DNA of 64,000 nt from a virus (lineage: Duplodnaviria > Heunggongvirae > Uroviricota > Caudoviricetes). Shown one piece after another: positions 54,880-57,331 of this stretch. The notes under the pieces are model-generated. The model was given only the letters and a program-made list of their open reading frames with translations, made no database searches and had not been told where the DNA came from. The stretch lies in the IMG/VR virus record IMGVR_UViG_3300031413_000570. One strand, written 5' to 3'. Numbering within the stretch: the stretch's first letter is position 1; the number at the start of each line of letters is the position of its first letter. Both the position numbers and the translations under genes were made by a program.

Positions 54880-54880
54880 A

Positions 54881-54913
54881 AAGAAGGGGAACCTTCTGCA
54901 GGTTCCCCTTCTT
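54881..54913. terminator. Bidirectional terminator
   Basis: aagaaggggaacct / aggttccccttctt. Confidence 0.8.
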
Positions 54914-54937
54914 CGCTATGTGCGTTGTGTTATTACT

Positions 54938-54966: not shown

Positions 54967-54970
54967 GAGA

Positions 54971-55014
54971 ATAAGCCCCAAAAACCTTGATTTTATAAGG
55001 TTTTTGGGGCTTAT
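54971..55014 (-). terminator. Terminator of the tRNA-like gene
   Basis: ataagccccaaaaacctt / aaggtttttggggcttat. Confidence 0.8.
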
Positions 55015-55023
55015 CTATTTTGA

Positions 55024-55152
55024 TTCCGCTGACGGGATTTGAACCCGTGTCTTCTATTTTTTCGCTGGCGCGCTTTCCCACGAATGACTCATGTAGGTTT
55101 GCAACCCTACTCAAATCAATTAGATGTTCTACCGAACTAATACTACAGCGGC
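55024..55152 (-). tRNA. tRNA-like gene with about 55 nt inserted in the anticodon loop (Ile-GAT or Phe-GAA if spliced; no encoded CCA)
   Basis: Acceptor GCCGCTG/CAGCGGA (G1:A72 mismatch), D-region TAGTATTAGTTCGGTAGAAC, stem TCTA/TAGA, T-arm ACGGG-TTCAAAT-CCCGT; own promoter and terminator. Confidence 0.65.
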
Positions 55153-55171: not shown

Positions 55172-55200
55172 ACTGTAACACACTCTAAATCAGAATGCAA
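55172..55200 (-). promoter_or_regulatory. Primary-sigma-type promoter of the tRNA-like gene
   Basis: TTGCAT-N17-TACAGT with extended TG, about 20 nt upstream of G1. Confidence 0.7.
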
Positions 55201-55391: not shown

Positions 55392-55492
55392 GAATAGAGA
55401 TATCGGTCATGAACTGCATCTGGTCGAAAGACTTTGAAAAGGGGTCAAATTGTGGTAAAATAAGGTAACTTAAAGGCTTGGAGAGAACCATC

Positions 55493-55927
55493 ATGGAATT
55501 TGTCATCAAAGACGCCACCCCTAAACCACAGACACCCAACTCATTCGAAGTAGACATCTCAACCATCATCGGAGATGACGAAGCCTACCAATCTTTCGTC
55601 GTTGGTCCTTTCATTAAAGACCAAGATGAGTACGCCTTGCAGAACCTGCTTGAGACTCTGACTGCAATGACGGCAATCGAACCTAACGGCATGGCTGACG
55701 GAGAACATTACGATGAACTTCCAGAGTTCAGAGCCTGGTTCAAAAACTCTAACGAATATGCAAATGAAGACGAAGTGCCTCTGGAACCTTGGAAGAATGT
55801 AAACCCTAAATGGTCGTTCTACTGGGTGACAGACGCCTACTCTTACGAACACAACAGGTATAATTCGTACACTGTTTACTATTATGATGAAAACCTTGTC
55901 CAGCACAGTGTATACGTGCAACTCTAA
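55493..55927 (+). CDS. Hypothetical protein
   Basis: ggag RBS before ATG 55493; Tyr/Trp-rich C-terminus. Confidence 0.65.
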   Translation: MEFVIKDATPKPQTPNSFEVDISTIIGDDEAYQSFVVGPFIKDQDEYALQNLLETLTAMTAIEPNGMADGEHYDELPEFRAWFKNSNEYANEDEVPLEPWKNVNPKWSFYWVTDAYSYEHNRYNSYTVYYYDENLVQHSVYVQL

Positions 55928-55951
55928 CTTACCTTTAGAAAGAAGTAGAAT

Positions 55952-56269
55952 ATGAGTGATACAACAAAGACTACCAAAGCCGTAAAAGCAACAAAAGAGA
56001 AAGCGCCCAAACCTCCGAAAGTCACCAAAGCGGAGAAGATGATGGAAGAGCGTGCTGTTCATAACTTCGAGAACACGTGTGCTGCAGTGAAAAGTGTTTC
56101 ACCCAGCTTTATTCGTGTGGCCATCGAAGCTTTGGAAAAAGCTAATCTCACTGCAAAAAGCAAGAATCGTATTCTTGTAGGCAAAGCTGCAGTTGAAGAG
56201 AAGATGAAAACAACTCCGAAGATTGTTCTGCCTAAAGAATGGTCCAAGCTTGATGAGCTGACCAAATGA
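55952..56269 (+). CDS. Small basic hypothetical protein
   Basis: Lys-rich N-terminus; followed by a terminator. Confidence 0.65.
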   Translation: MSDTTKTTKAVKATKEKAPKPPKVTKAEKMMEERAVHNFENTCAAVKSVSPSFIRVAIEALEKANLTAKSKNRILVGKAAVEEKMKTTPKIVLPKEWSKLDELTK

Positions 56270-56311: not shown

Positions 56312-57331
56312 TCAGGCTTTAGTTCTGCAGGTTGGACCTAAGCTGCCTTCACCTTTGAATGGTTTGCCGCAGCGAACACAGTTGCCGGTCTGGAAGACAT
56401 TGTTGATGCTGATTGGACCTGTTGCTTCATTCACAAAAGGAACAACAGTCACTGCAACATCATAGTCACGCCAAGCCTGAATGGCTTGTGGGTTGTCGTC
56501 CACGCAACGCACAACATCGTAATGACGGATGATGTTTTTGTACATGTCTTTCTTTACTTCATAGTCTGGACGGAAGTCAGACTCTGGACGCATGTAAATG
56601 TTTTCGTAAGGAACATTGTGTTCGTCTAACCACTTTTGGGTAGTTTCACGGTAAGGTTCGCTGCGAGCAGTAGTAATGAGAACTGCGAAGCCAGCTTCGT
56701 GAGCATCTTTAGCCATCTGTAACACTTCGTCGTTGGCTGGTTCAAATTCGCTCATACGGTGGAATGAATCAAAGTCACGCTGACGACCTTGAAGGAAGTG
56801 ACGGACTCCGCGAACATCATTCAAAGTACCGTCCATATCGAAACACACAGCTGGCTTTTTGGATGAAGGTTTCACGAAAGGCTTCACTGGGTATGAACCA
56901 GGGAAAACAGGGAACTCTCCGTTAGGGCCTAAACGACTGTACATACGCTTCATTACGTCTTCTGGCACTTGGCGTTCACGGTTAGCGTTACGACGCAAAG
57001 CTTCTTTCAAAGGAATTGGAAAGTCTTTGTGTTCTACAGTTGCACCTAAACGCTGTGCTGCTTTGATTGTCTTAGGCAAGAACTTGGTTGAAAGGTTAGT
57101 ATTGTCAGACATGACATCTTTACCTGCACGGAGAGCTCTTTGAGTAAGATCAAATTCCATCTGGCTGACATCTTTTTCTCGACTGTGGTTGGATGCTGAT
57201 CCAGTCAGAGCTTCACGAATGTCGTCACGGTTGATACGGACACGGTTGTCAGGGTTTTCCATAACCCATTGCTGAGCATATGTTGATTTACCTGAAGCAG
57301 GTATTCCTCTAAGGATTGTTAATGTGGGCAT
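56312..57331 (-). CDS. Polynucleotide kinase/3'-phosphatase (T4 PseT-like) with C-terminal Zn finger
   Basis: GIPASGKST P-loop, RINRDDIR, HAD motif FDMDGTL, ITTARSE, VDD; C-terminal CVRC...GPTC. Confidence 0.9.
   Translation of the reverse strand: MPTLTILRGIPASGKSTYAQQWVMENPDNRVRINRDDIREALTGSASNHSREKDVSQMEFDLTQRALRAGKDVMSDNTNLSTKFLPKTIKAAQRLGATVEHKDFPIPLKEALRRNANRERQVPEDVMKRMYSRLGPNGEFPVFPGSYPVKPFVKPSSKKPAVCFDMDGTLNDVRGVRHFLQGRQRDFDSFHRMSEFEPANDEVLQMAKDAHEAGFAVLITTARSEPYRETTQKWLDEHNVPYENIYMRPESDFRPDYEVKKDMYKNIIRHYDVVRCVDDNPQAIQAWRDYDVAVTVVPFVNEATGPISINNVFQTGNCVRCGKPFKGEGSLGPTCRTKA

What the first reader, a model, noticed from the sequence alone, without database searches (positions are those of the whole stretch)
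55024..55152. Separately transcribed tRNA-like RNA with a structured insertion of about 55 nt in the anticodon loop
Acceptor, D-like, anticodon-stem and T arms are all present, but 64 nt separate TCTA from TAGA. The insert has small hairpins (GTAGG-GTTGCAAA-CCTAC; CGTG-GGAAAG-CGCG). It is too short for a group I intron and I see no bulge-helix-bulge. Removing about 55 nt would give anticodon GAT (Ile) or GAA (Phe). It lacks encoded CCA, has a G1:A72 mismatch, has its own promoter and terminator, and lies among PNKP, ligase and CCA-type genes. Hypotheses: a protein-spliced intron processed by element enzymes, a nuclease-resistant decoy, or a regulatory tRNA mimic.
Basis: partly seen in the sequence, partly recalled or inferred. 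Interest (0 to 1): 0.78.

Follow-up and report, generated by a model that had tools for sequence, protein, structure and literature searches.

The report
tRNA-shaped phage RNA with two-hairpin cargo
A very large phage-like element carries a small RNA gene shaped like a tRNA, but two conserved hairpins replace the anticodon loop, so it almost certainly cannot decode and most likely acts as a stable tRNA mimic beside the element's RNA-repair genes.

Summary
Window 55024-55152 (minus strand) encodes a 129-nt RNA with an acceptor stem, D arm, 4-bp "anticodon" stem and T arm. Two hairpins of about 60 nt sit where the anticodon loop should be. It has its own promoter-like site and terminator.

It is a real, selected RNA. 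I found two diverged homologues on 0.7-0.9 Mb metagenomic contigs. 94.6% of paired cells are kept (about 40% in slid controls), and 20 of 38 pairs changed on both sides.

The intron reading is not supported. No anticodon is conserved after excision, the proposed GAU lies in a covarying stem, and the insert loops are the best-conserved parts. ARAGORN with introns and Rfam find nothing.

The closest published analogue is phage T4 RNA C (function unknown). An unannotated RNA in 50 Streptomyces phages has the same layout, the same apical cores (UGCA, GCGC) and the same position by RNA ligase/PNKP. Homology to it is suggestive, not proven.

All apical hexamers are self-complementary, which hints at loop-loop pairing or a symmetric protein site.

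This scan noted the same sequence on another genome (e1-5436739) and the Streptomyces family (e1-4040653). Function remains inferred. No expression data were available.

The parts
55024..55152 (-). 129-nt tRNA-shaped RNA gene (G1 = 55152, discriminator A = 55024)
   Evidence: Sequence. Covariance-model hits in three lineages. Covariation.
55146..55152 (-). Acceptor stem, 5' strand GCCGCUG
   Evidence: Pairs with 55025-55031. Four of six scored pairs changed on both sides across lineages. The G1-A72 mismatch is shared with L007 but not with L018.
55025..55031 (-). Acceptor stem, 3' strand CAGCGGA
   Evidence: As above. It is followed by discriminator A and AUCA, with no encoded CCA.
55126..55143 (-). 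D arm (GUUC-GGUA-GAAC mini-hairpin at 55137-55126; canonical register from 55143) with the GG dinucleotide
   Evidence: GUUC/GAAC is kept in L007 with a 9-nt loop, and GUCU/AGAC in L018 with a 10-nt loop.
55121..55124 (-). 'Anticodon' stem, 5' strand UCUA
   Evidence: Pairs with UAGA at 55053-55056. L007 has CUCA/UGAG, so 3 of 4 pairs changed on both sides.
55085..55118 (-). Hairpin 1 (7 bp, A/A mismatch, 5 bp; apical loop GUUGCAAA at 55098-55105)
   Evidence: 9 of 12 pairs changed on both sides. The apex core UGCA is invariant. The hexamer is UUGCAA here and in L007, and GUGCAC in L018 and Streptomyces phages.
55061..55084 (-). Hairpin 2 (UUCGU-G-GG / CC-A-GCGAA; loop AAAGCGCG at 55069-55076)
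   Evidence: GGAAAGCGCGC is identical in all three lineages. The stem varies compatibly.
55057..55062 (-). A-run (AAAAAA) joining hairpin 2 to the 3' strand of the 'anticodon' stem
   Evidence: Conserved as A5-A6 in all three lineages.
55053..55056 (-). 'Anticodon' stem, 3' strand UAGA
   Evidence: Covaries with 55121-55124.
55032..55048 (-). T arm ACGGG-UUCAAAU-CCCGU
   Evidence: 3 of 5 pairs changed on both sides. The loop is UUCAAAU in the window and L007, and UGCAAAG in L018.
55172..55200 (-). Promoter-like site TTGCAT-17 nt-TACAGT (TG before the -10), 19 nt upstream of G1
   Evidence: Read. It was not listed by the consensus scan. L007 has TTGCAT-17-TATGCT 7 nt before its G1. Inferred, not shown.
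54970..55015 (-). Intrinsic terminator (19-pair stem, bidirectional) 9 nt after the discriminator
   Evidence: Analogous terminators follow the L007 and L018 copies.
56312..57331 (-). T4-type polynucleotide kinase/phosphatase, the only neighbour shared by all three lineages
   Evidence: Pfam AAA_33 + HAD_PNKP and phrog_505. Neighbour comparison.

Best explanation
The gene makes a stable, non-decoding, tRNA-shaped RNA: a tRNA body used as a chassis, with a conserved two-hairpin module as cargo in place of the anticodon loop.

Inferred mechanism:
- The RNA is transcribed from its own sigma-70-type promoter and ends at its own terminator.
- The acceptor/T-arm/elbow part lets tRNA-processing enzymes mature it: RNase P at the 5' end, 3' trimming, then CCA addition by the host enzyme or by the element's own CCA-type transferase. 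This part also stabilises the RNA.
- The functional surface is the cargo: hairpin 1 with an invariant UGCA apex, hairpin 2 with the invariant loop GGAAAGCGCGC, and an A-run.
- It cannot read codons. I think it most likely acts as a tRNA mimic in the tRNA damage/repair conflict served by the adjacent PNKP, RNA ligase and CCA enzyme, by binding a protein. That protein could be a host tRNA-targeting nuclease (the RNA as sponge or decoy) or the element's own repair enzymes (the RNA as cofactor or regulator).
- Its two self-complementary apical hexamers may also pair it with a second copy.

Shown: the gene, its structure, its conservation and covariation, the absence of a conserved anticodon, and the recurrent position beside PNKP.

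Inferred: expression, processing, CCA addition, the binding partner and the biological role.
For: - Real structured RNA. Model R1, built from the window type only, finds L007 at 67.4 bits and L018 at 38.6 bits.
- Covariation. 94.6% of cells are paired, against 33-44% with slid partners. 20 of 38 pairs changed on both sides, and no shuffle of 500 reached this.
- RNAalifold on the same CM-derived alignment (A4) recovers the acceptor, D, hairpin 1, hairpin 2 and T helices: 34 pairs, 16 of them compensatory.
- The sense strand folds 9-13 kcal/mol better than the antisense strand in all three lineages, and four G-U pairs are used in the window copy.
- The tRNA body is canonical in all three lineages, but no anticodon loop exists. 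ARAGORN, with and without introns, and the Rfam tRNA model do not call it.
- The cargo loops are the most conserved segments.
- Each of the three copies has its own terminator. The window and L007 copies have matching promoter-like sites; L018's promoter is unclear.
- PNKP is the only neighbour shared by the three lineages, 0.6-1.8 kb away.
- 50 Streptomyces phages carry an unannotated RNA of the same layout directly upstream of their RNA ligase/PNKP genes. Its apices are GUGCAC and AGCGCU, while the tRNA chassis differs between subgroups.
- T4 RNA C shows that phages make stable RNAs of this general design (PMC9697503).
Against: - There are no expression, end-mapping or aminoacylation data.
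- Only three independent lineages are known, so covariation rests on few events, and alignment A4 was fitted to the model.
- The RNA is absent within 6-10 kb of PNKP in nine other related loci. The link to RNA repair is therefore recurrent but not obligatory, and PNKP often sits near ordinary tRNA genes in phages anyway.
- Homology to the Streptomyces family is not secure. The reciprocal model R3 gives 43.3, 33.4 and 21.3 bits, against up to 35.4 bits for ordinary tRNAs.
- No partner protein was identified.
- The palindromic apices can equally be read as one closing pair plus a UGCA tetraloop.
Confidence: 0.55

Rival explanations
1. It is an intron-bearing tRNA. The roughly 55-60-nt insert is cut out by an unidentified endonuclease and the halves are healed and sealed by the neighbouring PNKP and RNA ligase, giving a working tRNA (Ile-GAU, Phe-GAA or similar).
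For: - The tRNA body is complete, and PNKP plus an RNA ligase are encoded nearby, analogous to the yeast Trl1 heal-and-seal pathway.
- UU precedes the insert and GAAAAAA follows it in the window and L007, which can be read as parts of a Phe-like loop.
- Anticodon-intron pairing is normal in eukaryal pre-tRNAs (established knowledge).
Against: - No excision gives the same 7-nt loop and anticodon in all three lineages, and the UU...GAAAAAA reading leaves 8 nt.
- ARAGORN -i finds nothing at default and gives inconsistent isotypes when loosened: Phe-AAA for L007, Arg-CCG for L018 and none at the true ends for the window.
- There is no bulge-helix-bulge, no Rfam ribozyme or intron, and no splicing endonuclease among the ORFs scanned.
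- The insert loops are more conserved than the tRNA body.
- In the Streptomyces relatives the 'anticodon' stem is 7 bp and the remainder is not an anticodon loop.
Confidence: 0.06
2. It is an aminoacylated tRNA mimic that acts on the ribosome, a minimal tmRNA-like rescuer or a specialised adaptor.
For: - The only weak Rfam match is to tmRNA (15.5 bits).
- The L018 copy has a tRNA-Ala/tmRNA-type acceptor: GGGGCGG...CCGCUCC-A with G3-U70 and A73.
- One reading frame through hairpin 2 ends at a stop at the junction in all three copies (my reading).
Against: - The window and L007 copies have C3:G70 and a G1-A72 mismatch, so the Ala identity element is not conserved.
- The score is far below Rfam's gathering value (47 bits), and ARAGORN finds no tmRNA.
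- There are no pseudoknots.
- The putative tag differs in length and C-terminus (..APAKK, ..LTKK, ..APV). The conserved block GGAAAGCGCGC shows no synonymous variation, which indicates an RNA-level constraint.
- No SmpB was seen in the ORFs scanned.
Confidence: 0.05
3. It is a Y-RNA-type partner (YrlA-like) of a Ro60/TROVE protein working with RNA-repair enzymes.
For: - Bacterial YrlA RNAs mimic tRNA and are linked to RNA-repair operons (established knowledge; PMC7824862 notes TROVE proteins with a tRNA-like partner in some jumbo phages).
- The genomic context is RNA repair.
Against: - The topology differs. Here the 5' and 3' ends form the acceptor stem, not a Ro-binding stem.
- There is no Rfam Y RNA match.
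- No TROVE domain was found in 28 window ORFs and 1 L007 ORF scanned with Pfam, mostly in 41-62 kb, nor in the precomputed Pfam lists of the related loci.
Confidence: 0.05
4. It is a decaying tRNA pseudogene disrupted by an insertion, with no function.
For: tRNA finders reject it. It also has a G1-A72 mismatch and an odd D arm.
Against: - Every helix, including those of the insert, is kept by compensatory changes across lineages whose PNKP proteins are only 53-74% identical.
- The terminator is kept in all three lineages, and a matching promoter-like site in the window and L007.
- The 3' half is nearly invariant in a relative whose flanking genes differ by about 7%.
Confidence: 0.02

Closest known systems
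Bacteriophage T4 RNA C (species 1 RNA, rnaC, 139 nt) and RNA D
   Same: It is a phage-encoded small stable RNA with paired ends and a canonical T arm (CCGGG-UUCGAAU-CCCGG), and two extra hairpins between them. Its function is still unknown (PMC9697503). It has no Rfam family.
   Different: There is no detectable sequence homology (10.6 bits, E 0.13 with R2). T4 RNA C lies inside the tRNA cluster and is co-transcribed, and it lacks a clear D arm and a closed 'anticodon' stem. Its hairpin apices are not the UGCA/GCGC palindromes.
Unannotated 133-137-nt tRNA-shaped RNA of Streptomyces BE-cluster phages (Samisti12, Wofford, Anedea, Genie2, LilMartin, Targaryen, Mandalore, Coruscant); noted earlier by this scan, and I found no publication describing it
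   Same: The order of parts is the same: acceptor, D arm, closed 'anticodon' stem, hairpin 1, hairpin 2, purine-rich linker, T arm. The hairpin 1 apex core is UGCA; L018 has the very same GUGCAC. The hairpin 2 apex core is GCGC. It lies just upstream of the RNA ligase and PNKP genes.
   Different: The 'anticodon' stem is 7 bp rather than 4. Hairpin 2 is CUAGUAGCGCUGCUAG rather than ..GGAAAGCGCGCC.., and the linker is AUGA rather than an A-run. Reciprocal model scores overlap those of ordinary tRNAs, so common descent is not established.
Bacterial Y RNA YrlA with Ro60 (Rsr)
   Same: It is a tRNA-mimicking non-coding RNA genetically linked to RNA-repair enzymes.
   Different: In YrlA the ends form the Ro-binding stem and the acceptor-like stem is closed (from established knowledge). 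Here the ends form a free acceptor stem. No TROVE gene was found nearby.
tmRNA (SsrA)
   Same: It has a tRNA-like acceptor/T-arm domain with a large insertion in place of the anticodon arm. The L018 copy has G3-U70.
   Different: The RNA is 129 nt, with no pseudoknots and no conserved tag frame. G3-U70 is absent in the window copy. The Rfam score is 15.5 bits against 47 needed.
Engineered 'tRNA scaffold' for recombinant RNA expression (Ponchon and Dardel; PMC3753655)
   Same: The cargo RNA is inserted at the anticodon stem of a tRNA, so that the cell processes and stabilises it. This is the same design logic.
   Different: It is artificial, so it is only an analogy for why a phage might use a tRNA chassis.
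   Same: Apical loops present 6-nt self-complementary sequences, and the same two hexamers occur here (recalled from memory, not tested).
   Different: There is no evidence of dimerisation here, and no relatedness. phi29 pRNA loops are complementary to each other rather than to themselves.

Membership tests
Canonical (decoding) tRNA | Acceptor stem, D arm, T arm and elbow nucleotides | tested here: met
   Acceptor of 6 bp plus G-A, a D hairpin with GG, and a T arm with UUCAAAU. All are kept by covariation.
Canonical (decoding) tRNA | 5-bp anticodon stem closing a 7-nt loop with U33 and an anticodon; recognised by tRNA models | tested here: not met
   A 4-bp stem opens into two hairpins. ARAGORN finds 0 genes and there is no Rfam tRNA match even at E <= 10.
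Intron-containing tRNA (protein-spliced) | Excision restores the same anticodon loop in homologues | tested here: not met
   The remainders differ between the window, L007 and L018, and GAU is not conserved. ARAGORN -i gives nothing at default and inconsistent calls when loosened.
Intron-containing tRNA (protein-spliced) | Bulge-helix-bulge or other splice-site motif, and a splicing endonuclease | tested here: not met
   There are no 3-nt bulges flanking a 4-bp helix in hairpin 1 or 2. No tRNA_int_endo hit was found among the scanned ORFs, but the window was not scanned exhaustively.
Group I intron in tRNA | Intron of 200 nt or more with a P3-P9 core; Rfam Intron_gpI | tested here: not met
   The insert is about 60 nt and there is no Rfam match.
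tmRNA | G3-U70 alanine identity pair | tested here: not met
   The window and L007 have C3:G70. Only L018 has G3-U70.
tmRNA | Tag reading frame, pseudoknots, model score | tested here: not met
   Rfam tmRNA scores 15.5 bits against a gathering score of 47. ARAGORN finds no tmRNA. There is no conserved tag.
YrlA / Y RNA | Adjacent Ro60 (TROVE) gene | tested here: inconclusive
   No TROVE hit in 28 window ORFs and 1 L007 ORF scanned with Pfam, nor in the precomputed Pfam lists of L006-L009 and L015-L018. The rest of the roughly 0.78 Mb genome could not be searched.
YrlA / Y RNA | The 5' and 3' ends form the Ro-binding stem; the tRNA-like part is distal | tested here: not met
   The ends form the acceptor stem.
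T4 RNA C-type phage stable RNA | Paired ends plus a T arm, with extra hairpins instead of an anticodon arm | tested here: met
   Fold of T4 rnaC compared with the window RNA.
T4 RNA C-type phage stable RNA | Sequence/structure homology to rnaC | tested here: not met
   R2 scores rnaC at 10.6 bits, E 0.13.
Streptomyces BE-phage two-hairpin tRNA-shaped RNA | Architecture and apical motifs (hairpin 1 UGCA-centred palindrome, hairpin 2 GCGC-centred palindrome) | tested here: met
Streptomyces BE-phage two-hairpin tRNA-shaped RNA | Significant reciprocal covariance-model match above the tRNA background | tested here: inconclusive
   R2 scores Samisti12 at 27.4 bits, against up to 25.5 for tRNAs in the same locus. 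R3 scores L007 at 43.3, the window at 33.4 and L018 at 21.3 bits, against up to 35.4 for control tRNAs.
Streptomyces BE-phage two-hairpin tRNA-shaped RNA | Position next to RNA ligase/PNKP genes | tested here: met
   The window RNA is 1.2 kb from PNKP. The Samisti12 RNA is 1.2 kb upstream of RNA ligase and 2.8 kb upstream of PNKP.

The most novel reading that the evidence does not exclude
The RNA may be a self-assembling tRNA mimic. Its two apical loops each present a self-complementary hexamer: UUGCAA or GUGCAC on hairpin 1, and GCGCGC or AGCGCU on hairpin 2. Copies could therefore join loop-to-loop into dimers or chains that display several tRNA bodies. Such an assembly could serve large actinobacterial phages as a platform or sponge for tRNA-cleaving defence nucleases or for the phage's own repair enzymes. 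Palindromy is kept where the loop sequence differs between lineages, which is what this reading predicts.
Probability: 0.2. Interest if true: 0.8.

Novelty: new variant of a known kind. Interest (0 to 1): 0.58.

Why it matters
- Phage tRNA-like stable RNAs have been known since the 1970s (T4 RNA C and D), and no function has been assigned to them.
- This RNA gives that puzzle a clearer handle. It has a compact, conserved cargo with two invariant loops, a recurrent position beside RNA-repair genes, and a probable relative in cultivable Streptomyces phages where genetics and biochemistry are possible.
- If it works as a decoy, cofactor or self-assembling platform in the contest over tRNA cleavage and repair, it would add an RNA player to a field so far described in terms of proteins and ordinary tRNAs.
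- For annotation, such genes are missed by tRNA finders and by Rfam. They should not be called split or intron-bearing tRNAs.

Tried and rejected
- **Expression:** The look-up of sequencing runs listed no RNA holder. One run was guessed to be RNA (X20). Its contigs cover only 54991-55087 of the RNA and stop there, which says nothing about expression.
- **Close variants:** contigs from runs X3 and X5 are identical across the RNA, so they give no covariation.
- **Whole genome:** none is held for the window or for the related metagenome records. Other copies in the genome, a Ro60 gene or a splicing endonuclease could therefore not be sought genome-wide.
- **Phage collection:** blastn of the locus against phages found no match. 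PNKP as a single query found no relative in IMG/VR.
- **Pattern scans:**
  - GGGTTCAAATCCCGTCAGCGG found only an ordinary phage tRNA-Glu (L005).
  - The three-block pattern found only the window and L007 types in metagenomes, and nothing in IMG/VR.
  - The looser hairpin 2/T-arm pattern found nothing in IMG/VR and one chance hit inside a coding region of a Bacillota MAG (L019).
- **Exact 18-nt hairpin match:** GTAGGGTTGCAAACCTAC occurs in IMG/VR tRNA arrays (L001, L003, L004). About 2-3 chance matches are expected for a collection of that size. L003 also lacks the 5' acceptor strand that the model proposed. I rejected it as a homologue.
- **Other PNKP loci:** no copy was found within 6-10 kb of PNKP in L008, L009, L015-L017, L020-L023 and L045, nor in 20 IMG/VR PNKP loci. 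Only ordinary tRNAs turned up.
- **Targets:** nothing in the window is complementary to the conserved loops beyond chance.
- **Ribozymes:** I considered hammerhead, twister, pistol and hatchet. The core motifs are absent and there is no Rfam hit.
- **Shared neighbour proteins:** none other than PNKP is common to the three lineages.
- **Literature:** searches found no description of this RNA.
Full report
**What is there.**
On the minus strand, window 55152 to 55024 reads as a 129-nt RNA. In order, it has:
- an acceptor stem GCCGCUG/CAGCGGA, with G1 opposite A72;
- an 8-nt linker;
- a D hairpin GUUC-GGUA-GAAC, or in the canonical register GUAU/GAAC with loop UAGUUCGGUA;
- a 4-bp stem UCUA/UAGA at the place of the anticodon stem;
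- a 4-nt variable loop;
- a T arm ACGGG-UUCAAAU-CCCGU;
- discriminator A, with no encoded CCA.

The 64 nt between UCUA and UAGA form two adjacent hairpins followed by an A-run:
- Hairpin 1 has 7 bp, an A/A mismatch and 5 bp, closed by the loop GUUGCAAA.
- Hairpin 2 is UUCGU-G-GG/CC-A-GCGAA, closed by the loop AAAGCGCG.

The minimum-energy fold reproduces this layout at -40.6 kcal/mol, against -29.3 for shuffles (z = -3.5). The sense strand folds 9 kcal/mol better than the antisense strand.

A 19-pair terminator follows at 55015-54970. Upstream I read TTGCAT-17-TACAGT at 55200-55172. The consensus scan did not list this site, so the promoter is inferred.

ARAGORN finds no tRNA or tmRNA in the whole window. 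Rfam finds nothing at gathering thresholds. Its only weak match is to tmRNA, at 15.5 bits against the 47 needed.

**Setting.**
The window is phage-like: it encodes a primase, topoisomerase II subunits, methyltransferases and large amidoligase-like proteins. Its PNKP is found on contigs of 0.5-1 Mb. Near-identical DNA occurs in phyllosphere, plant and straw metagenomes. No whole genome is held for it.

Around the RNA lie:
- a T4-type PNKP (56312-57331, minus strand);
- an NlpC/P60 protein;
- an HD-domain protein;
- a small RNA ligase;
- a CCA-type nucleotidyltransferase;
- a convergent YgjV-like membrane protein.

Between PNKP and the RNA, the plus-strand ORFs 55478-55927 and 55952-56269 look like the real genes. 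The second has a homologue at the same place in L007.

**Is it a real, selected RNA?**
Yes. Using PNKP relatives as anchors, I found a homologue 0.6 kb downstream of PNKP in L006/L007. These lie on an 880-kb contig whose PNKP is 74% identical. A second homologue lies 1.8 kb upstream of PNKP, on the other strand, in L018. This is a 696-kb contig whose PNKP is 53% identical.

A pattern scan of metagenomes returned only minor variants of the first two types.

A covariance model built from the window type alone scores L007 at 67.4 bits and L018 at 38.6 bits.

On the model-made alignment A4:
- 94.6% of cells form standard pairs, against 33-44% when the partners are slid;
- 20 of 38 pairs show changes on both sides;
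- none of 500 shuffles reaches the observed values.

RNAalifold, run on the same alignment, predicts the acceptor, D, hairpin 1, hairpin 2 and T helices. It gives 34 pairs, 16 of them with compensatory changes.

The 4-bp stem changes from UCUA/UAGA to CUCA/UGAG between the window and L007.

These counts rest on three lineages and a fitted alignment. Still, the pattern is unambiguous, and the use of G-U pairs fixes the strand. A relative about 7% diverged in the flanking gene differs at 1 of 97 positions over the RNA's 3' half and terminator.

**What is conserved.**
- The most conserved stretches are in the insert. GGAAAGCGCGC in hairpin 2 is identical in all three lineages. The UGCA core at the apex of hairpin 1 and the A-run are also kept.
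- The tRNA body varies more. G1-A72 with C3:G70 occurs in the window and L007. L018 instead has a tRNA-Ala-like acceptor GGGGCGG/CCGCUCC-A, with G3-U70 and a T loop UGCAAAG.
- PNKP is the only protein-coding neighbour shared by the three lineages.
- No copy lies within 6-10 kb of PNKP in nine other related loci.

**Against the intron reading.**
It reads AGA in L007, and L018 has AGAUGG at that point.
- After any excision the remainder differs between lineages. The most attractive reading (UU ... GAAAAAA) leaves eight nucleotides and fails in L018.
When loosened it gives Phe-AAA for L007, Arg-CCG for L018 and nothing at the true ends for the window.
- There is no bulge-helix-bulge, no ribozyme or intron family, and no splicing endonuclease among the ORFs scanned.
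- A discarded intron would not be the best-conserved part of the gene.

**Comparison with known RNAs.**
T4 RNA C (139 nt) has the same general design, with paired ends, a canonical T arm and two extra hairpins. Its function is still unknown (PMC9697503), and it has no Rfam family. It is not detectably homologous to the window RNA.

After I had reached this comparison, the scan's earlier notes showed that similar tRNA-shaped phage RNAs had been met on other DNA. One of them was a Streptomyces phage RNA placed ahead of RNA-repair genes. I tested that lead:
- Model R2 hits Samisti12 at L046:4075-4208 with 27.4 bits, aligned through both hairpins.
- 50 Streptomyces phage records carry the RNA, all without annotation.
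- Eight diverged variants fold into the same order of parts. Their hairpin 1 apex GUGCAC and hairpin 2 CUAGUAGCGCUGCUAG are invariant, while the tRNA chassis differs between subgroups.
- In Samisti12 the RNA lies directly upstream of the RNA ligase and PNKP genes.
- L018 has the very same GUGCAC apex.

A model built only from five Streptomyces sequences scores L007 at 43.3 bits, the window at 33.4 bits (filters off) and L018 at 21.3 bits. Ordinary control tRNAs reach 35.4 bits.

I therefore regard the two groups as the same kind of RNA and probably distant relatives, but homology is not proven.

**The apical hexamers.**
The hairpin 1 apex is UUGCAA (window, L007) or GUGCAC (L018, Streptomyces phages). 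The hairpin 2 apex is GCGCGC (this clade) or AGCGCU (Streptomyces phages). All four are self-complementary.

A random 8-nt loop contains a 6-nt palindrome with probability 0.046. Where the sequence differs between lineages, palindromy is kept by paired changes.

Three readings fit this:
- loop-loop (kissing) pairing between copies;
- a symmetric protein-binding site;
- more simply, one closing pair on an invariant UGCA tetraloop.

The stems contain G-U pairs, so this is not a DNA-level palindrome. I noticed the pattern after the fact, so I treat it as a hypothesis.

**Most likely working.**
The tRNA body serves as a processing and stability chassis, as in the engineered tRNA scaffold (PMC3753655). 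The two-hairpin cargo is the functional surface.

The RNA cannot decode. Given its recurrent position by PNKP and RNA ligase, I think it acts as a tRNA mimic in the tRNA cleavage/repair conflict. It could be a sponge for a host nuclease, or a cofactor or regulator of the repair enzymes, possibly as a dimer or oligomer.

Only the gene, its structure, its conservation and its context are shown. Expression, maturation, partners and role are inferred.

**Verdict.**
This is a real, conserved, non-decoding tRNA-shaped RNA. It is a new variant of the old but unexplained class of phage tRNA-like stable RNAs. This scan had already seen it on a near-identical genome (e1-5436739) and seen its likely relatives in Streptomyces phages (e1-4040653).

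Noticed in passing
L022:12185-12258 (+): A 617-kb relative carries a suppressor-type tRNA with anticodon CUA (ARAGORN labels it 'tRNA-Pyl'). It lies 1.1 kb downstream of its PNKP, and a T4-type RNA ligase gene starts about 0.9 kb beyond it.
   Followed up: no
L004:371-502 (+), also L001:5826-5957 (-) and L003 about 960-1090: IMG/VR phage tRNA arrays hold an unannotated stretch between tRNA-Met and tRNA-Pro. It contains the exact 18-nt hairpin GTAGGGTTGCAAACCTAC of the window RNA, followed by a tRNA-like T arm. I judged the match coincidental, but the stretch itself looks like another uncalled tRNA-like RNA.
   Followed up: partly
L046:4219-4347 (+) (Streptomyces phage Samisti12); also L054 about 440-570: A second, different 129-nt tRNA-shaped RNA lies 10 nt after the first. 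It has its own acceptor and T arm and a different internal cargo, and it is unannotated.
   Followed up: partly
window 56312-57331 (-), C-terminal about 25 residues: The PNKPs of this clade end in a conserved Cys motif, C-x-R-C-G...G-P-x-C. C318, C321 and C335 are invariant in 18 sequences. T4 Pnkp lacks this motif (from memory). It may relate to the Cys-rich tags noted on other enzymes of this genome.
   Followed up: no
window 55478-55927 (+) and 55952-56269 (+): The real genes between PNKP and the RNA appear to be on the plus strand. One is an acidic 149-aa protein. The other is a Lys-rich 105-aa protein, conserved next to the RNA in L007 (38% identity). The long minus-strand ORF 55559-56062 looks spurious.
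   Followed up: partly
L049:301-433 (+) (Streptomyces phage Genie2): The Genie2 copy of the Streptomyces RNA also has G1 opposite A72, as do the window and L007 copies. The recurrence of this mismatch in separate chassis may be meaningful.
   Followed up: no
window 54970-55015 and 54880-54914: Two strong hairpin terminators lie back to back between the convergent YgjV-like gene and the RNA gene. The first is symmetric enough to act in both directions.
   Followed up: no
L018:8847-9332 (+): A 161-aa ORF near the L018 RNA starts with a Cys-rich N-terminus, MSTIQACRAKKPSVCPYHG. It resembles the leader tags that first readers noted on enzymes of the window's genome.
   Followed up: no
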